DNA from: a virus
Taxonomy: Duplodnaviria; Heunggongvirae; Uroviricota; Caudoviricetes
Direction: 5' to 3' (one strand)
DNA length: 5,624 nucleotides
Virus record (IMG/VR): IMGVR_UViG_2597490238_000004
Shown here: piece by piece, positions 64-5,624 of the stretch
Layout of the letters: every line of letters starts with the position of its first letter
How positions within the stretch are numbered: the first letter of the stretch is position 1
Translations under genes and position numbers: made by a program
The notes under the pieces: generated by a model
The model's database searches: none
What the model was told of the DNA's origin: nothing
The model's input: only the letters and a program-made list of their open reading frames with translations

Positions 64-88
64 AAAAAAGCCCGCATCAGCGGGCTTT
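64..88 (-). terminator. GC-rich hairpin with flanking A/T tracts; intrinsic terminator-like, stronger for leftward (minus-strand) transcription
   Basis: Seen in sequence: A-run 64-69, stem 70-75 (gcccgc) pairing with 80-85 (gcgggc), 4-nt loop atca at 76-79, then ttt at 86-88. On the minus strand the hairpin is followed by a 6-U tract; on the plus strand by only 3 U. Confidence 0.45.
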
Positions 89-315: not shown

Positions 316-1215
316 TTATGTCTGGATGTGGTCGTCAACACATCCTCTTTTAAATACAGGCGCTTTTACCTTAGTTGGATCATCTGTTTTAAAGATTTTC
401 AATCGTTCACTGAAGAACATTACCTCAGATCCTTTGTACCGATCTTGAGCACTGTAGTTTATTCCATATACTAATGATGATGTCTTATACATAGCTTGGA
501 TCTCAGGAGTGTTATCGTAAGAAACAATCCAAGGTGTTTTAATATTATTCTGTACGACTTTTGCAACCCTAACATGATCATCATGATCATAATGGTTGAT
601 ATATAAACCTTTACCTTTTATGTAATAAGGTGGATCCAAATATGTTAATGAGTTTTGTGGCAATTGAGTAACTATTTTTTTAATGAAATCAATTGCATCC
701 ATGTTATATAAATCTATTCTGTGACGATTTTCTGATATTTTATGGATTCGAGAAATCAAATCACTCTTATTATAGCGAGCGTCAAGCTTCCATTTCCCTT
801 CTTGATTTTTACCGCCAATTACTCCACCTTTTAATATTCCAGAACGATTTGTTCTATTGAGAAAAAAGGTTGAGAAACCAATTGTTAAAAGATCATGGTC
901 TTTAGGATTATTAATTATATCTTTCTGCCTAAACCATTCATCCATTGTAACTTCTGTTCTTTCAATTAAAGAACATAATTGATCTGCATGATTTAATACA
1001 CTGTGCCAAAAAGCATAAACAGAAATATTAATATCATTAAGGATGATTTTTTCAGCTGCATTTAGATGTAACAGTTTCAATGCTAAACCAGCACCCCCAG
1101 CATATGGTTCGGCATAATGTATAGGCGAAAGATTATTTTCTTCAATAATCCGAAGCATGAAATTTGCAAGCTTGCCTTTACCGCCAGGATAGCGAAGTGG
1201 GGTGTTAAAACGCAT
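316..1215 (-). CDS. Dam-family (D12 class) N6-adenine DNA methyltransferase, 299 aa
   Basis: Translation shows the Dam-family motif set in the Dam order: N-terminal RYPGGKGK (compare Dam LKWAGGK), motif I EPYAGGAG (nt ~1087-1110), LNDINIS (compare Dam ILADINSDL), FFLNRTNRSG (compare Dam LYLNRYGYNG), and catalytic DPPY (residues 194-197, nt 625-636). GAGG sits 7 nt upstream of the ATG at 1213-1215. AT-rich codon usage. Confidence 0.85.
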   Translation of the reverse strand: MRFNTPLRYPGGKGKLANFMLRIIEENNLSPIHYAEPYAGGAGLALKLLHLNAAEKIILNDINISVYAFWHSVLNHADQLCSLIERTEVTMDEWFRQKDIINNPKDHDLLTIGFSTFFLNRTNRSGILKGGVIGGKNQEGKWKLDARYNKSDLISRIHKISENRHRIDLYNMDAIDFIKKIVTQLPQNSLTYLDPPYYIKGKGLYINHYDHDDHVRVAKVVQNNIKTPWIVSYDNTPEIQAMYKTSSLVYGINYSAQDRYKGSEVMFFSERLKIFKTDDPTKVKAPVFKRGCVDDHIQT

Positions 1216-1250
1216 ATGATACCTCTAAATGTCAGATCTAAAGTATATCA

Positions 1251-1289
1251 AAAAAAGGGCTTTATGGCCATCACATAAAACCCTTTTTT
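1251..1289 (-). terminator. Imperfect hairpin in the ATPase-MTase intergenic region; terminator/attenuator-like
   Basis: Seen in sequence: aaaaaaggg (1251-1259) pairs with cccttttttt (1281-1289), with an inner tttat/ataaa pairing (1261-1265 with 1276-1280) and one bulged c. On the minus strand it lies just after the ATPase stop (1296-1298) and is followed by a 6-T run, then the MTase RBS. AT-rich stem, so stability is uncertain. Confidence 0.35.
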
Positions 1290-1295
1290 AATCAA

Positions 1296-3029
1296 TTAGT
1301 TATCTGACAGATATGATGAGATGGTAGCAGAATCGACACCATGTCCACTTATCATAATAACTTTAAGACTCTTTATTAGTTCATTCTTGAAGCTATCCGA
1401 TTGAACAGGATTTTTCTCGACCCAATATCGATATGGGTTATCTTTAACTCTTCCTTTGACTTGGGCCTGAAATTGAGTCGTATGTGCAAAATCTTTAAAC
1501 AGTTTTCTAACTCTCCCTCCATGGTTTTTGTTAACTTTTTTATAATTATCTATAAGGATTTTTAAATCAATCGGAGCGTTACCAATCTTTAGCGTTGCAA
1601 TTATGTCTTTAGCTGTTTTCATAAAAACAGCTTTTGTAAATTTATTTTTATTTTCCCAATATGCATCATCAGGTGGTAAATTATATAAAAACTCAAAAAT
1701 CATTTGGTCTGGAGGTAAGGTGCTTGGAAGCAAACATAAGTTTTTTTCTTTTTTGGCTTTTTTTGCATTAGCACTGTTGTCGTGAACAACATCACCGTCT
1801 AAGACGATCAAGCTTTTAGCTGTAAATTCTGGTATTTTTCTTGCCATTAAGTCAAGCATGGCAGAGCAGCTAATATTTATATTTCCTAATGGATTTAATA
1901 TTTTATTTATTTTTCGATCTGTTATCAATTGTTTGAAAAAGTCGAAACCTTCTTTGTCTTCAAAATATACATTTGCCTTTGGAAGACAAATGTCATCATT
2001 AATTTTTACAGTTTCAACATGTAAATCAGCGTGGATATCTGTCCATGAAAGATTATTCTTTGTTTTAATATCTCCATATGTGTCTGTAAGATATATTGTT
2101 TTAAAGCTATCACTATCTTGTTTTGAACGATTATAGATATCCTCTATTATTAATGGAGAGTGCGAGGTCATGATTATTTGCAGATCGTATTGTTTTGCTG
2201 CTTTAGTTAGAATATTAATTAGCTCTAACTGTGCCGCAGGGAAAAGACCTGCATCGGCTTCATCAATTAACAATATTCCGCCATGATAATCAGAATAAGT
2301 TTCCTTCAATCTTTTAAATGAAAAAATTGCCTGGATTAATTGTCCAACATTATCTTCACCAACAGATACTGATTGGTGATCATAATTGTCACCATGGACA
2401 ACCATTGAATCGATAGTACCTTTTGTTGCTGTTACTGAGCTTCCATTGTTTTTTAGTAAGAGTTGGTTACTCATCATTCTGATTTCATCAGAATTTTCAT
2501 TGATGTACTGAACATCCCGTGTTGAGTAATCAGTCCTTAATGTAATAGGAAGAAGTCGTGCTAAGCTTAAAAAAATAACAGGATGAGTAACGTTTCTACT
2601 TTGGTTTTTTTCCGGTATTGAATCATTTCCCCTGACTACAGGCCTAGATTTATCTCTGTCACTGTAGCTGTATAAACCTAATGTTAGTTTTTCAAGATGT
2701 TTGTTCGATGCACCATCATAGACACTAATTTTGACGTCCATTGAACCAGGAACATCAAATTGTTCTGAAAGCCTAAAATGTTCGCTGAAAGCTGACTTGA
2801 AGCTGCCATTTGTTAATGTTTTATATTGTGTTAAATCAGTCTCAGGGTTTTTGGTAAAGTCCTTTGTAAAGCTAAATATTTGGGCGATAATGCCAAGAAT
2901 TGTGGATTTAGATGTGCCATTTTTACCACAAATAACAGTTAGGCGAGAACCAAACTCGATGTTTATATTTTTCAGTCCGCGAAACTTCACAACATTTATA
3001 TTTTTTAGTTTGGTAATTTGATTTGCCAT
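1296..3029 (-). CDS. ABC-type (OLD-family-like) ATPase with C-terminal TOPRIM-like putative nuclease domain, about 577 aa from the preferred start
   Basis: Walker A GKNGTSKST (nt 2901-2927, verified by back-translation), signature-like SVGEDNVGQ, Walker B ILLIDEAD (nt ~2256-2279), H-loop-like MTSHSP (nt ~2154-2168). C-terminal region has an acidic VYFEDKEGFD motif (E374 of the 594-aa ORF, nt ~1959-1961) and LIVLDGD (DxD, nt ~1791-1799), the spacing and pattern expected of a TOPRIM fold as in OLD/Gabija GajA-type proteins. Preferred start is the ATG at 3027-3029 (MANQITKLKNINVVKFRGL, a typical N-terminus for this ATPase family, GGAG upstream). The ORF track's start at 3080 has no RBS and would translate through a palindrome. 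Confidence 0.8.
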   Translation of the reverse strand: MANQITKLKNINVVKFRGLKNINIEFGSRLTVICGKNGTSKSTILGIIAQIFSFTKDFTKNPETDLTQYKTLTNGSFKSAFSEHFRLSEQFDVPGSMDVKISVYDGASNKHLEKLTLGLYSYSDRDKSRPVVRGNDSIPEKNQSRNVTHPVIFLSLARLLPITLRTDYSTRDVQYINENSDEIRMMSNQLLLKNNGSSVTATKGTIDSMVVHGDNYDHQSVSVGEDNVGQLIQAIFSFKRLKETYSDYHGGILLIDEADAGLFPAAQLELINILTKAAKQYDLQIIMTSHSPLIIEDIYNRSKQDSDSFKTIYLTDTYGDIKTKNNLSWTDIHADLHVETVKINDDICLPKANVYFEDKEGFDFFKQLITDRKINKILNPLGNINISCSAMLDLMARKIPEFTAKSLIVLDGDVVHDNSANAKKAKKEKNLCLLPSTLPPDQMIFEFLYNLPPDDAYWENKNKFTKAVFMKTAKDIIATLKIGNAPIDLKILIDNYKKVNKNHGGRVRKLFKDFAHTTQFQAQVKGRVKDNPYRYWVEKNPVQSDSFKNELIKSLKVIMISGHGVDSATISSYLSDN

Positions 3030-3051
3030 GTTTCTATCTTGCTCCGTAAAA

Positions 3052-3070
3052 TGGCCACAAATTGTGGCCA
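3052..3070. promoter_or_regulatory. Near-perfect palindrome TGGCCACAA-a-TTGTGGCCA between int stop and ATPase start; candidate operator or RNA hairpin
   Basis: Seen in sequence: 9-bp arms 3052-3060 and 3062-3070 are exact reverse complements around a single central base. It sits in the 58-bp gap between the int stop (3088-3090) and the preferred ATPase ATG (3029). Confidence 0.35.
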
Positions 3071-3086
3071 ATAGTTTCATGCTTGG

Positions 3087-3092
3087 ATTATA
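3087..3092 (-). promoter_or_regulatory. Candidate sigma70 -10 hexamer (TATAAT on minus strand) overlapping the int stop codon; possible cargo promoter
   Basis: Minus-strand reading of 3087-3092 is TATAAT, a perfect -10 consensus. The best -35 candidate (TTGAAG) is only 10 nt upstream, so spacing is wrong and no good -35 exists at 16-18 nt. Weak call. Confidence 0.2.
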
Positions 3093-4254
3093 TTGTTATC
3101 TTCTTCAAGCTTGTTTGTCCATCATATTCCTTCAGATATGAGCCATAGTGCCTGAAAAGCATCTCCGGCCCTTTATGCCCCATTTGAGCTGCAAGCCAAA
3201 ACAGGTTTGCTCCCCGGCTGATATGGCGGGTGGCGAATGTATGCCTGGTTTGATATGGATTTCTGTAACGAATACCTGCTTTTCGCAATGTTGGCACCCA
3301 TGCTTTTTTCCTGATTGCATCAGCACTTGCCCAGGGCTTATTGGTCTTTGGATCTTCAAAGACAGTAGCATCCTTCATGAATGTAAATGGCTTCTGATTT
3401 ATCAGCGCCAACATTGCATCTTCTGTCAGTTCAACTTTACGAGTACCGGCTTTTGTCTTTGTTCCTTTGATAACACCGACAACACTTGCGCTCTGGACAT
3501 GGGCAGTTTTTCCAACAAAGTCGATATCACGCCATCGAAGGGCACATAATTCAGAACTACGCAGGCCTGTATGTATAGCGAACCGGAACAGATTCTCCCA
3601 TTGTTTGTTTCCGGCTGCTGTTAGTAATGCATCAACTTCTGCTGGTGATAGCGGATCAACCACGTAGCTGCTTTCTGCTTCTGACTTATCACTTTGGTAG
3701 CGCGAAGCAGTTACCAACGATACGGGGTTAATTTGAAGTACCCCATCGGTTACGGCTTCATCAAGTGCTGACCGCAGGAAAGATAACTGGTTGCGAATTG
3801 TTTTTAAGGTCGTTTTCTGGCTTTGAATCCACGCTTTCAGGATTGCTGGTGTTAATTCACTTGCAGGGCAAATGTGGAGTGAGGCTAACGCACTACGGCA
3901 TTTTTTATAACCACCAATCGTAGAGGGTGAAAGTTTTCTCGTTTCGCAGATTTCAAGGTATTCGTCCAGGTACATTTTTACCGTTTTGCCTGCAGCAGCA
4001 TTACCAAAAATTTTCAAACGAGCAGAACGGGGAAAATATTCCGCATAAATGAATGTTCCCCTTTCGATCTTATTATGAATTTCGCCGAGTGTGCGCTCGG
4101 CGTATTTAATGTTCTTTGGTGTTACTTCCAGATTGGAAAGAGGCTCACGACATTTAACTCCTTTGTAGGTGAAAGTTATATTGATCGTTTCGCCCTGGCG
4201 GTGTTTCCTGATTGTTACGCCGCGCGGTAGTTTGAGCAGTTTTGTCTGGCCCAT
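3088..4254 (-). CDS. int: Tyrosine-recombinase phage integrase, 388 aa, Rac/e14-like with N-terminal arm-binding domain
   Basis: C-terminal catalytic motifs visible: ...RNPYQTRHTFATRHISRGANLFWLAAQMGHKGPEMLFRHYGSYL (R, HxxR and the catalytic Tyr in HYGSY). N-terminus MGQTKLLKLPRGVTIRKHRQGETINITFTYKGVKCREPL resembles the arm-type DNA-binding domain of Rac IntR-like integrases (from memory). GAGG 7 nt upstream of the ATG at 4252-4254. Confidence 0.9.
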   Translation of the reverse strand: MGQTKLLKLPRGVTIRKHRQGETINITFTYKGVKCREPLSNLEVTPKNIKYAERTLGEIHNKIERGTFIYAEYFPRSARLKIFGNAAAGKTVKMYLDEYLEICETRKLSPSTIGGYKKCRSALASLHICPASELTPAILKAWIQSQKTTLKTIRNQLSFLRSALDEAVTDGVLQINPVSLVTASRYQSDKSEAESSYVVDPLSPAEVDALLTAAGNKQWENLFRFAIHTGLRSSELCALRWRDIDFVGKTAHVQSASVVGVIKGTKTKAGTRKVELTEDAMLALINQKPFTFMKDATVFEDPKTNKPWASADAIRKKAWVPTLRKAGIRYRNPYQTRHTFATRHISRGANLFWLAAQMGHKGPEMLFRHYGSYLKEYDGQTSLKKITI

Positions 4255-4421
4255 TTTGCAACCTCACTAAGATCAATCCACCTCTCCTTAACGCCTTCAA
4301 CCTTTAAAACCTGAACACCTTCACGCCAAACACCGCGCTGTACACGTTTGTTTATTGCTTCAGGAGTTTCGCCAGTTTCTTTGCAATAAGTTGAGATTGG
4401 AACGCAATCGAGGTTCAGCAT
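4215..4421 (-). CDS. xis: Excisionase-like small DNA-binding protein, about 68 aa from the ATG start
   Basis: Position immediately upstream of int with its 3' end overlapping the int start, as in lambda xis-int. Size and loose resemblance to Xis-type winged-helix proteins (ETGETPEAINKRVQRGVWREG...KERWIDLSEV). The ORF track starts at a GTG (4431-4433) that lies inside the probable Shine-Dalgarno GTGGAGAA; the ATG at 4419-4421 with GGAG 7 nt upstream is the more likely start. Confidence 0.55.
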   Translation of the reverse strand: MLNLDCVPISTYCKETGETPEAINKRVQRGVWREGVQVLKVEGVKERWIDLSEVAKWARQNCSNYRAA

Positions 4422-4480
4422 ATGTTTCTCCACTTAGCCCGCTGCACACGGGCAGTAATATCAAATTCCAGTCCTGATAA

Positions 4481-4696: not shown

Positions 4697-5055
4697 TTCT
4701 TAGTCTCTGGTGCTTTCGGCATTACTGCCCAGTGAGTGATATTGACGTTTTCAAGGTCCCCGACCTGAAATGTCCACTGCCATTCTCCGGTTTCTTTTTG
4801 TTCCCAGGTGTACCAGAGAGAACGCCAGCCAATCAGCCAGCCTTCTCCGTTAGCATCAAATAACAGAACACTTTCATTTGCTGGTGGCAGTTCAGCTGAC
4901 ACTGGTATTATTTTGTTTTCCAGTGCCGCACATTTAGCTTCAAGCGCGTCGAATTTACGTACCAGGTACTCAGCATTTGTTTCGTTCACTTTCAGATCTC
5001 GCGGTACACATTTCCCGCGAAGAAACCCTTCCATTTCGAAAACATTCATGCGCAT
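4693..5055 (-). CDS. DUF551-like prophage protein, 120 aa
   Basis: Trp-rich C-terminal half (GWLIGWRSLWYTWEQKETGEWQWTF...HWAVMP) resembles the DUF551 family common in enterobacterial lambdoid prophages (from memory). GGAG 8 nt upstream of the ATG at 5053-5055. Overlaps the upstream HD gene stop by 10 nt. Confidence 0.6.
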   Translation of the reverse strand: MRMNVFEMEGFLRGKCVPRDLKVNETNAEYLVRKFDALEAKCAALENKIIPVSAELPPANESVLLFDANGEGWLIGWRSLWYTWEQKETGEWQWTFQVGDLENVNITHWAVMPKAPETKK

Positions 5056-5582
5056 TTGCGTAACTCCGATAACTCGTTAAAACGTTCCATAAACATCCCG
5101 TAGGCGTGGCCCGGTGCCAGTGGAATCACGTTGAACATCTCTGTTGCCGGGATGCCTTCCAGTACAGGCCAGAAAGAGCCATCATCAAGCCCGAGATCAC
5201 GGCGTTCGGTTGCCAGCATGATTAGATCGGCATATTTCACAGGCGTACTCATAACCGGGGGCAACTCGTATTTCTCACGGATTACTGCGTCTATTTTTTC
5301 TTCCATCCGTTTATAGTCAGGAAGAAGGCGTTTCAGTGGTGCGGGGATGTCCTGGCAATACGCTTCTGTTGCATCATGCATTAACGCTTCAAAAGCAAAT
5401 TCCTGCGGCACCAGCTGGCTGCAAAGCACCGCATGTTGGGCGACGCTGTAGAAGTGAGAAAGATGACCGGCAAAGCGGCAGATATTTGAAAGGGAAACCG
5501 CGATATCGTTAATCACGATGTCGTCTTTATTTATCTTGTCATAGTAAAAATGCTTCCCGGAAAAAGTTTTAATAAATGACAT
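5046..5582 (-). CDS. HD-domain phosphohydrolase (YfbR-like 5'-deoxynucleotidase family), about 178 aa from the ATG start
   Basis: HD-domain metal-binding motifs visible: ...GHLSHFYSVAQHAVL... (His) and ...ALMHDATEAY... (His-Asp), with a YfbR-like DIPAPLK segment. The ORF track starts at GTG 5607-5609, but the ATG at 5580-5582 is preceded by GGAG at 6 nt spacing (GTGGAGAACAAAATG) and is the more likely start. Confidence 0.75.
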   Translation of the reverse strand: MSFIKTFSGKHFYYDKINKDDIVINDIAVSLSNICRFAGHLSHFYSVAQHAVLCSQLVPQEFAFEALMHDATEAYCQDIPAPLKRLLPDYKRMEEKIDAVIREKYELPPVMSTPVKYADLIMLATERRDLGLDDGSFWPVLEGIPATEMFNVIPLAPGHAYGMFMERFNELSELRKCA

Positions 5583-5624
5583 TTTGTTCTCCACGTATAT
5601 GCGCTGCACCGCGCTGAATTCGGG

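What the first reader, a model, noticed from the sequence alone, without database searches (positions are those of the whole stretch)
316..3080. Candidate two-gene defence module: OLD-like ATPase/TOPRIM nuclease paired with a Dam-family methyltransferase
The two co-oriented AT-rich genes encode a protein with ABC-ATPase motifs plus a C-terminal TOPRIM-like acidic motif pair (the architecture of OLD-family and Gabija GajA-type nucleases), followed by a Dam-family D12 adenine methyltransferase. OLD-type nucleases are known as stand-alone genes (class 1), with a UvrD helicase (class 2, Gabija), or with DUF4435 (PARIS). I do not recognise an OLD-like nuclease paired with a Dam-like MTase as a named system. 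The pairing suggests a restriction-modification-like logic in which adenine methylation protects self DNA from the ATPase-nuclease, or alternatively a methylation-sensing nuclease. The location at a prophage int-att junction fits known defence hotspots. This is the strongest candidate in the window for an undescribed system.
Basis: partly seen in the sequence, partly recalled or inferred. Interest (0 to 1): 0.85.

Follow-up and report, generated by a model that had tools for sequence, protein, structure and literature searches.

The report
ATPase-nuclease paired with adenine methylase
At the edge of an E. coli prophage sit two genes, an ATP-driven nuclease-like protein and a DNA adenine methylase, that travel together across many bacterial phyla; they look like an untested cousin of the validated anti-phage system PD-lambda-5 with a different weapon attached.

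Summary
Two co-oriented, AT-rich genes lie on the minus strand beside the prophage integrase. One encodes a 577-aa ABC-type ATPase (1296-3029; the ORF extends to 3080). The other encodes a 299-aa D12 adenine methyltransferase (316-1215).

The pairing is not chance. In 80 loci from one-genome-per-species data, 78 have the MTase. The other two contigs end just after the ATPase. In 71 loci the MTase lies directly downstream on the same strand.

All ATPase motifs, the C-terminal Glu/Asp and DxD, and the MTase DPPY and AdoMet motifs are invariant down to about 35-38% identity.

"OLD-like" holds only for architecture and predicted fold. No TOPRIM HMM matches, and profile-profile comparison with the P2 Old C-terminus fails.

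PD-lambda-5 is an experimentally validated E. coli defence system whose partner is a ParB/HEPN protein. Here an ATPase/TOPRIM-like protein takes that place. In phage contigs this MTase family pairs about equally with either effector, and sometimes with both.

Best reading: a restriction-modification-like module, a new variant of a known kind. Its function is untested. Interest 0.6.

The parts
316..1215 (-). D12-class N6-adenine DNA methyltransferase, 299 aa, PD-Lambda-5_B family. AdoMet motif 'EPYAGGAG' at aa 36-43; catalytic DPPY at aa 194-197.
   Evidence: Pfam MethyltransfD12 1.8e-19. PADLOC PD-Lambda-5_B 2e-124 / 412 bits and MTase_II 1.8e-107. NCBIfam dam subfamily scores only 56.6 bits against a cutoff of 114.85. 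DPPY is invariant and the AdoMet motif invariant or nearly so (3 conservative changes in two positions) in 79 homologues.
1216..1295 (-). Intergenic spacer. It holds a 13-bp hairpin (about 1286-1254) followed by a T-run, overlapped by a TG-extended promoter-like site (TGGCCA-17-TATACT, 1270..1242), and an AGAGG ribosome-binding site before the MTase ATG.
   Evidence: Sequence read. Promoter-like site. RNA fold -18 kcal/mol, z = -4.2. Function is inferred: possible attenuation of read-through plus independent MTase expression.
2085..3029 (-). ABC/SMC-type ATPase head (aa 1-315). Walker A G35-K41-S42, Q50, signature S222-x-G224, Walker B D256-E257, H290. A beta-rich insertion at about aa 55-200 is rich in invariant Arg/His.
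1725..1997 (-). TOPRIM-like core (aa 345-435), a four-stranded alpha/beta unit. Invariant E357-D358 follow strand 1 ('NVYFEDKE'); D411-x-D413 follow strand 3 ('IVLDGDV').
1299..1724 (-). C-terminal helical region (aa 436-577), starting with the invariant 'LLP..LPPDQ.IFEFLYNL' motif. Role unknown.
   Evidence: Alignment A1. Model secondary structure. No family hit.
3030..3080 (-). Possible 17-codon N-terminal extension of the ATPase ORF. Probably untranslated leader.
   Evidence: PGAP starts the gene at 3029. Homologues start at the equivalent Met.
3088..4254 (-). Context only: prophage tyrosine integrase that marks the prophage end. The excisionase (4215-4433) lies upstream.
   Evidence: Pfam Arm-DNA-bind_2 5e-23 and Phage_integrase 3.4e-16. 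phrog_2917 excisionase 1.6e-45.

Best explanation
This is a two-gene, restriction-modification-like defence cassette carried as a low-GC 'moron' at the integrase end of a CPS-53-like prophage.

**Proposed mechanism**
- The D12 methyltransferase marks host and prophage DNA on adenine at its recognition motif.
- The upstream protein is an ABC-type ATPase fused to a divergent TOPRIM-like metal-dependent nuclease domain. It acts as an ATP-dependent effector against DNA that lacks the mark.
- This MTase family is constant while its partner varies between an ABC-ATPase/TOPRIM-like protein, a ParB/HEPN protein as in PD-lambda-5, or both. I therefore think the MTase, or its mark, supplies target discrimination and the effector is a plug-in module. 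This resembles type I/III R-M, where the restriction subunit depends on the modification subunit.

**Shown**
- Gene content, motifs and predicted fold.
- Strict co-inheritance of the two genes.
- Homology of the MTase to a validated defence component.

**Inferred**
- Nuclease activity, DNA as the substrate, protection by methylation, and anti-phage function.
For: **Co-occurrence and arrangement**
- 78 of 80 loci in different species carry the MTase. The other 2 contigs end right after the ATPase.
- These loci span Gamma- and Betaproteobacteria, Bacteroidota, Mycobacterium, Listeria, Geobacter and Acidobacteria.
- In 71 loci the MTase is directly downstream on the same strand, with a median gap of 45 bp.
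- ATPase and MTase identity matrices co-vary: Mantel r=0.78, 0 of 999 permutations as high.
- Even ATPases only 24-39% identical sit directly upstream of this MTase family in phage contigs and beside it in the P2 hotspot.

**Both proteins look enzymatically active**
- Walker A/B, Q-loop, signature motif, H-loop, E357/D358 and D411/D413 are invariant in 79 ATPases.
- DPPY is invariant and the AdoMet motif nearly so in 79 MTases.

**Link to a validated system**
- The MTase matches PD-Lambda-5_B (412 bits).
- PD-lambda-5 protects E. coli against nearly all phages tested. It had to be cloned in an mrr-deleted host, which suggests (my inference; the paper gives no reason) that its MTase methylates the genome in vivo (PMC9519451).

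**Fold evidence**
- Foldseek's best full-length matches are the OLD nuclease 6p74 and GajA.

**Location**
- Mobile-element accessory slots: int-att junctions at glaH and icd, and an ICE. GC is low.

**Expression**
- A promoter-like site and a hairpin lie in front of the MTase. This is compatible with MTase expression independent of the effector.
Against: - There are no experimental data for this pair.
- No known restriction endonuclease uses a TOPRIM fold (my own knowledge).
- The closest structural matches for the C-terminal domain, AriB and retron Eco2, cut tRNA in abortive infection rather than DNA (AriB from my own knowledge).
- The MTase specificity is unknown, and no DNA-recognition element has been shown in the ATPase.
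- Vassallo et al. themselves describe PD-lambda-5 as 'RM+Abi', not plain R-M.
Confidence: 0.5

Rival explanations
1. PARIS/PrrC-like abortive infection. The ABC ATPase holds its fused TOPRIM nuclease inactive until a phage factor triggers it, for example an anti-restriction or anti-methylase protein or a DNA mimic. The nuclease then cuts tRNA or other RNA and the infected cell stops growing. The MTase is either a first-line epigenetic component or the guarded partner.
For: - Eco2 cuts tRNA.
- PADLOC gives AriA/AriAB and PtuA hits on the ATPase head.
- PD-lambda-5 was described as 'RM+Abi'.
- Three-gene loci with ATPase, ParB/HEPN and MTase exist (L098, L099).
Against: - No DUF4435/AriB HMM hit.
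- The AriA/AriAB hits cover only short ATPase-head stretches.
- The MTase catalytic motifs are invariant or nearly so. That argues methylation itself matters, not just a protein-protein guard.
- A guard with no restriction component to guard is hard to rationalise in the two-gene form.
Confidence: 0.25
2. An addiction (post-segregational killing) module. It stabilises the prophage or ICE through the same toxin (nuclease) and antidote (methylation) logic, with little or no anti-phage role.
For: - The module is always on mobile elements or islands in the annotated examples.
- Strict co-inheritance, with no ATPase found lacking the MTase.
Against: - The homologous PD-lambda-5 gives strong, broad phage protection.
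- Addiction and defence are not mutually exclusive in R-M systems (established knowledge).
Confidence: 0.1
3. The ATPase is not a nuclease. The acidic residues bind metal for another purpose. The protein blocks replication or entry of unmethylated DNA without cleavage (BREX-like), or acts as an SMC/Rad50-like DNA clamp.
For: - No nuclease HMM matches.
- A 2025 preprint reports that OLD-containing systems showed no cleavage of model substrates in vitro.
Against: - Invariant E357/D358 and D411-x-D413 sit at the strand ends of an alpha/beta unit, which is the TOPRIM catalytic signature.
- Foldseek's top matches are OLD and GajA nucleases over the full length.
Confidence: 0.1
4. Two unrelated accessory genes that merely sit side by side: a phage Dam-like anti-restriction methylase and a stand-alone class-1-OLD-like exclusion gene.
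For: - Phages often carry orphan adenine methylases. The same prophage in JJ1886 has a second one.
- Class 1 OLD genes are single genes.
Against: - 78 of 78 testable loci across about six phyla keep both genes, and 71 keep the same order and strand.
- The two genes diverge in step.
- The linkage persists for ATPases at 24-39% identity.
Confidence: 0.05

Closest known systems
PD-lambda-5 (Vassallo et al. 2022, PMC9519451; PADLOC PD-Lambda-5_A/B)
   Same: - Same MTase family: PD-Lambda-5_B at 412 bits, about 51-52% identity to the MTases of E. coli PD-lambda-5-type loci.
- Same two-gene layout, with the effector upstream of the MTase in most loci.
- Same kind of habitat, namely prophage accessory slots and the P2 hotspot.
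   Different: - The effector differs. PD-lambda-5_A is a ParB/Srx-N plus HEPN-like protein of about 470-500 aa.
- Here it is a 577-aa ABC ATPase with a TOPRIM-like C-terminus. No PD-Lambda-5_A model appears among its top PADLOC hits.
- Only PD-lambda-5 has been tested experimentally.
Class 1 OLD nucleases (P2 Old, Thermus scotoductus OLD 6p74)
   Same: - N-terminal ABC ATPase (AAA_15/AAA_21) plus a C-terminal alpha/beta domain with a conserved Glu and DxD.
- Similar length.
- 6p74 is the best Foldseek match over the full length.
- Prophage-encoded.
   Different: - Class 1 OLD genes stand alone, whereas this one is obligately linked to an MTase.
- No OLD-like_TOPRIM Pfam hit, whereas P2 Old hits at 1.2e-17.
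- The C-terminal profiles are not alignable locally.
- The ATPase insertion is beta-rich here, rather than the dimerisation domain described for Ts OLD and GajA.
Gabija GajA (class 2 OLD)
   Same: - ATPase plus TOPRIM architecture, with Foldseek E about 1e-11.
- GajA is a sequence-specific nicking enzyme, so OLD-type proteins can be site-specific (abstract of PMC8136825).
   Different: - The partner is a UvrD-like helicase (GajB), not an MTase.
- No helicase is present at this locus.
- PADLOC GajA hits cover only about 50 residues around Walker B.
PARIS (AriA/AriB) and retron Eco2 TOPRIM effectors
   Same: - ABC ATPase combined with a TOPRIM nuclease.
   Different: - Those systems have no methyltransferase, and their nucleases cut tRNA after a phage trigger.
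- No DUF4435 or AriB HMM hit here.
Classical restriction-modification systems (type II, and NTP-dependent types I/III)
   Same: - An MTase plus a putative nuclease in one operon on mobile DNA.
- The MTase also matches a PADLOC 'Type II MTase' model (1.8e-107).
- An ATP-using effector, as in types I and III.
   Different: - The effector has no PD-(D/E)XK, HNH, GIY-YIG or PLD domain and no SF2 helicase motor.
- A TOPRIM nuclease is not among the known restriction folds (my own knowledge).
- Cognate specificity has not been shown.

Membership tests
OLD family nuclease | N-terminal ABC-type ATPase (AAA_15/AAA_21) with intact Walker A/B, Q-loop, signature motif and H-loop | tested here: met
OLD family nuclease | C-terminal domain recognised as OLD-type TOPRIM by sequence profile (Pfam PF20469) | tested here: not met
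   No Pfam hit on the full protein or on aa 320-577, even at E<=1. None in 10 distant relatives. Positive control P2 Old hits at 1.2e-17. hhalign of the C-terminal profiles gives 0.2% probability.
OLD family nuclease | TOPRIM fold with a conserved Glu after strand 1 and DxD after strand 3 | tested here: inconclusive
Gabija (class 2 OLD) | Adjacent UvrD/PcrA-like helicase GajB | tested here: not met
   The neighbours are the MTase and the integrase. In 71 of 80 loci the downstream gene is the MTase.
PARIS | AriA ATPase together with an AriB DUF4435-type TOPRIM protein, separate or fused | tested here: not met
Septu / retron type I-A PtuA | PtuA equivalog score and an adjacent PtuB HNH nuclease | tested here: not met
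   NCBIfam PtuA 65 bits against a cutoff of 500. No HNH gene nearby.
PD-lambda-5 | B component: PD-Lambda-5_B methyltransferase | tested here: met
   PDLC04018 2e-124, 412.6 bits, aa 1-282 against model positions 1-283 of 291.
PD-lambda-5 | A component: ParB/Srx-N plus HEPN-like protein (PD-Lambda-5_A) | tested here: not met
   The partner is an ABC ATPase. No PD-Lambda-5_A model appears among its 25 best PADLOC hits, all at E<=7e-12. Genuine A proteins score 5e-168 and 4e-74.
Dam subfamily of D12 methyltransferases | D12 domain, DPPY and AdoMet motifs, and NCBIfam 'dam' subfamily score | tested here: inconclusive
   The D12 domain and motifs are met. TIGR00571 scores 56.6 bits against a cutoff of 114.85. 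This is a D12-class enzyme, not demonstrably a GATC Dam. Its specificity is unknown.
Restriction-modification system | Nuclease and MTase share a recognition sequence, and methylation blocks cleavage | not testable with these tools
   This needs a methylome (SMRT or nanopore) and cleavage or transformation assays. Only operon linkage and co-divergence are shown.
MADS (methylation-associated defence system) | MAD3 ATPase equivalog within a multi-gene mad operon | tested here: not met
   NCBIfam MADS3 31 bits against a cutoff of 420. The locus has two genes only.

The most novel reading that the evidence does not exclude
A previously unclassified class of OLD-like ABC-ATPase/TOPRIM nuclease whose self/non-self decision is set by a dedicated adenine methyltransferase. 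It would be, in effect, a new ATP-dependent type of restriction-modification using a nuclease fold not known among restriction enzymes. It would belong to a wider 'MTase hub' family, with PD-lambda-5 as one branch, in which one conserved methylase plugs into interchangeable effectors (ParB/HEPN, ABC-TOPRIM, or both).
Probability: 0.4. Interest if true: 0.75.

Novelty: new variant of a known kind. Interest (0 to 1): 0.6.

Why it matters
- How OLD-type ATPase-nucleases tell foreign from self nucleic acid is still largely open. Class 1 enzymes have no known partner or trigger.
- An OLD-like protein obligately wired to a methyltransferase offers a simple, testable self-marking logic.
- The comparison also reframes PD-lambda-5. 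Its methylase is the constant element of a family whose effector is swapped between unrelated proteins.
- Standard annotation tools would miss every ATPase-type member, because they require the ParB/HEPN component.
- The module is widespread: more than 1100 ATPase homologues, about 80 species in one-per-species data, and 85 complete E. coli genomes including ST131 strains. It may act as a barrier to phage therapy and to DNA transfer in clinical lineages.

Tried and rejected
- **Pfam, NCBIfam and PADLOC scans for a TOPRIM/OLD/DUF4435 hit in the ATPase.** None found. None in 10 distant relatives of the C-terminal domain either.
- **PDB sequence searches, single sequence and profile.** Only ATPase-head matches.
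- **hhalign of the family against P2 Old.** A single sequence aligned only the Walker B region. The C-terminal profiles gave no match. Only a relaxed global alignment was colinear.
- **Idea that the locus is PD-lambda-5 itself.** Rejected, because the A component is a different protein family.
- **Idea that it is Gabija, PARIS, Septu or MADS.** Rejected on missing partners and sub-threshold scores.
- **tRNA or Rfam elements at the att side.** None found.
- **Literature searches for an OLD-like plus adenine-MTase system.** Five searches found nothing that describes it. The Xanthomonas Tn-seq paper concerns a stand-alone OLD. The DefensePredictor table of cloned units has no adenine methylase entry. 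The ST131 methylome paper mentions a putative 'M.Eco1886ORF14565P' in clade C, which may be this gene, but I could not verify that and no motif is given.
- **Limit of the literature check.** The searchable library is incomplete, so prior description elsewhere cannot be excluded.
Full report
**1. What is in the window**

All genes read on the minus strand. From high to low coordinates they are:
- a yfdR-like 5'-deoxynucleotidase (5046-5609), followed by two small phage ORFs;
- an excisionase (4215-4433, phrog_2917 1.6e-45);
- a tyrosine integrase (3088-4254);
- a 594-aa ORF (1296-3080);
- a 299-aa ORF (316-1215).

The last two genes have 30-36% GC, against 42-49% for the prophage body. The same 2.85 kb is present at 99% identity or more in 79 complete E. 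coli genomes, and at lower identity in 6 more, always on the chromosome. In JJ1886 it sits between the integrase of a CPS-53-like prophage and the host gene glaH. No tRNA or Rfam element lies in the window.

**2. The methyltransferase**

Pfam assigns MethyltransfD12 (1.8e-19). The AdoMet motif (EPYAGGAG) and the catalytic DPPY are present. DPPY is invariant and the AdoMet motif nearly so (three conservative changes in two positions) across 79 homologues.
- It scores below NCBI's cutoff for the Dam subfamily (56.6 against 114.85 bits). 'Dam-family' should therefore be read as 'D12 class'. The recognition sequence is unknown.
- The key result is the PADLOC match to PD-Lambda-5_B (2e-124, 412.6 bits, full length).
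- PD-lambda-5 is one of the 21 systems recovered by functional selection from E. coli isolates (PMC9519451). It is listed there as 'ParB/HEPN, methyltransferase' from ECOR7. It affected all but one phage tested and was cloned in an mrr-deleted host. [quoted passage not shown]

**3. The ATPase**

PGAP and all homologues start at the second ATG (3029), giving 577 aa.

*N-terminal head (about 315 residues)*
- It is an ABC/SMC-type ATPase head: Pfam AAA_15, AAA_21, AAA_23 and SMC_N.
- Walker A (G35..K41-S42), Q50, S222-x-G224, D256-E257 and H290 are invariant in 79 sequences that diverge to 38% identity.

*C-terminal region: sequence evidence*
- No Pfam, NCBIfam or PADLOC model recognises a TOPRIM in this protein.
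- Pfam found none in ten more distant relatives that share the C-terminal core.
- P2 Old, used as a positive control, hits OLD-like_TOPRIM at 1.2e-17.
- A profile-profile comparison of the two C-terminal families finds nothing (probability 0.2%).

*C-terminal region: structural evidence*
- The AlphaFold models are confident (pLDDT 88.8 full length, 90.6 for aa 320-577).
- Foldseek ranks the Thermus OLD nuclease and Gabija GajA first, with alignments spanning the whole chain (3.7e-12 to 1e-11).
They are invariant in all 79 sequences.
- A relaxed global hhalign places E357 on the Glu of Old's 'LVEGKTE' (low confidence in that stretch).

My reading is that the architecture is OLD-like and the C-terminal domain is most likely a divergent TOPRIM. 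Family membership by sequence is not met.

**4. Is the pairing real?**

I scanned one genome per species with patterns from the ATPase alignment and obtained 80 loci. They come from Gamma- and Betaproteobacteria, Bacteroidota, Mycobacterium, Listeria, Geobacter and Acidobacteria.
- tblastn finds the MTase in 78 of them. The two exceptions are contigs that end within about 100 bp after the ATPase.
- In 71 loci the MTase follows directly on the same strand, with a median gap of 45 bp between hits.
- The remaining seven have it upstream, on the opposite strand, or more than 400 bp downstream. Two of those seven look degraded.
- Pairwise identities of the two proteins co-vary (Mantel r=0.78, 0 of 999 permutations as high). 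The genes are therefore inherited as a unit.

**5. The wider family**

Starting instead from the MTase, E. coli genomes and phage contigs show that this MTase subfamily is the constant partner of different effectors.

In E. coli:
- an ICE carries a gene annotated 'ATP-dependent nuclease' plus the MTase (ATPase 55% and MTase 66% identical to the window's);
- a prophage at icd carries an AAA ATPase plus the MTase at its integrase junction;
- a P2-hotspot locus has the MTase followed by an ATPase only 26% identical;
- two loci carry genuine PD-Lambda-5_A proteins (5e-168 and 4e-74) next to MTases 52-53% identical to the window's by tblastn.

Among 31 IMG/VR contigs with an MTase at 42% identity or more:
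- 13 have an ABC-ATPase partner (4 close, 9 at 24-39% identity);
- 13 have a PD-Lambda-5_A-type partner;
- 2 have both (L098, L099);
- 3 gave no tblastn partner. One is at a contig edge. One has a ParB-N-like 370-aa ORF plus a 338-aa ORF directly upstream, which I read as a possible split A component. One has an unassigned convergent 490-aa ORF.

Every ATPase of this family found here has this MTase, whereas the MTase accepts several unrelated effectors.

**6. Mechanism**

I commit, at about 0.5, to restriction-modification-like logic.
- The MTase marks resident DNA.
- The ATPase/TOPRIM-like protein attacks unmarked incoming DNA in an ATP-dependent way.
- The MTase, or its mark, provides the discrimination, which would explain why effectors can be exchanged on a constant methylase.

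*Shown:* both enzymes' catalytic motifs are under strong constraint; the operon is conserved; the MTase is homologous to a validated defence component; the module sits in mobile-element slots. A stable hairpin with a T-run (z = -4.2) and a TG-extended promoter-like site lie in the 80-bp spacer, compatible with separate MTase expression.

*Inferred:* nuclease activity, DNA as substrate, protection by methylation, and defence function.

*Main rival (0.25):* a PARIS/PrrC-like abortive-infection effector. The closest structural relatives of the C-terminal domain (AriB, Eco2) are tRNA-cutting TOPRIMs released by phage triggers. Vassallo et al. also saw an 'Abi' element in PD-lambda-5.

*Lesser rivals:* a pure addiction module (0.1), a non-nucleolytic BREX-like blocker (0.1), and two unrelated neighbours (0.05, essentially excluded by section 4).

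**7. Comparison with known systems and novelty**

- It works like an R-M system and is built like an OLD nuclease.
- By the tests run here it is not a member of Gabija, PARIS, Septu or MADS. It is also not PD-lambda-5 as currently defined, because the A component is absent.
- It shares the B component with PD-lambda-5.
- PHROGs files the ATPase as phrog_3940, 'unknown function' (6e-201). RefSeq calls it 'AAA family ATPase', or 'ATP-dependent nuclease' for some homologues.
- Five literature searches and the DefensePredictor tables gave no description of the pair. The searchable library is incomplete.

I rate it a new variant of a known kind: an effector-swapped, ATPase/TOPRIM-type branch of the PD-lambda-5 / R-M-like family. 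It could equally be called a further genomic-context class of OLD-like proteins.

**8. Verdict**

| Item | Verdict |
|---|---|
| Observation | Confirmed |
| Real, functionally coupled module | about 0.9 |
| Defence function | about 0.75 |
| Specific mechanism | about 0.5 |
| Interest | 0.6 |

On the interpretation: the module and the R-M-like idea stand, the 'OLD TOPRIM by HMM' prediction fails, and the PD-lambda-5 link was missed. The MTase ties the locus to an already validated system, modular effector exchange is a familiar theme, and nothing here is experimentally shown. It remains well above ordinary because the pair is widespread, is uncalled by the PADLOC models tested here, and offers a direct handle on self/non-self control of OLD-like nucleases.

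Noticed in passing
window 3029-3080 (- strand): The ATPase ORF has two in-frame ATGs. PGAP and all aligned homologues start at 3029 (577 aa, 'MANQITKL').
   Followed up: yes
window 1240-1298 (- strand): The 80-bp spacer between ATPase and MTase folds into a 13-bp hairpin followed by a T-run (-18 kcal/mol, z = -4.2). It overlaps a TG-extended promoter-like site (TGGCCA-17-TATACT, 1270..1242). This may be an attenuator plus the MTase's own promoter. Most homologous loci have only about 45 bp here, so it may be specific to the enterobacterial version.
   Followed up: partly
L098 795-4882 and L099 2953-6423 (IMG/VR contigs): Three-gene versions exist in which an ABC ATPase, a PD-Lambda-5_A-like protein and the MTase sit together. 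Gene order differs between the two contigs.
   Followed up: partly
window 2430-2865 (- strand; ATPase aa about 55-200): The ABC head carries a beta-rich insertion with many invariant basic residues (R86, R129, R133, R145, H149, R158, R165; motif 'SRNxTHPVIxLSLxRLxPI'). OLD and GajA have their dimerisation domain at this position. It is a candidate DNA-binding or recognition module.
   Followed up: no
window 4215-4433 (- strand): A 72-aa ORF overlapping the integrase start is an excisionase (phrog_2917, 1.6e-45). Pfam gave no hit for it.
   Followed up: yes
window 67-88: A strong GC-rich hairpin with T-runs on both sides (AAAGCCCGCTGATGCGGGCTTT) lies about 230 bp beyond the MTase stop, in the stretch between the prophage end and host glaH. 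It is probably a bidirectional terminator insulating the host gene. The att core was not mapped.
   Followed up: no
L001 23705-24358 (JJ1886 prophage): The same prophage carries a second, unrelated 'phage N-6-adenine-methyltransferase' in its early region. The junction MTase is therefore not the phage's only methylase.
   Followed up: no
L007 (Symbiopectobacterium) and L085 (Listeria rocourtiae): In these two loci the best tblastn hits to both the ATPase and the MTase are truncated (ATPase to about aa 415, MTase to about aa 160-180). This suggests the two genes decay together, or contain frameshifts.
   Followed up: no
PMC4659465 (ST131 methylome paper): The paper mentions a putative type II MTase 'M.Eco1886ORF14565P' restricted to ST131 clade C. 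This may be the JJ1886 copy of this gene. No recognition motif is reported, and I could not confirm the identity.
   Followed up: partly
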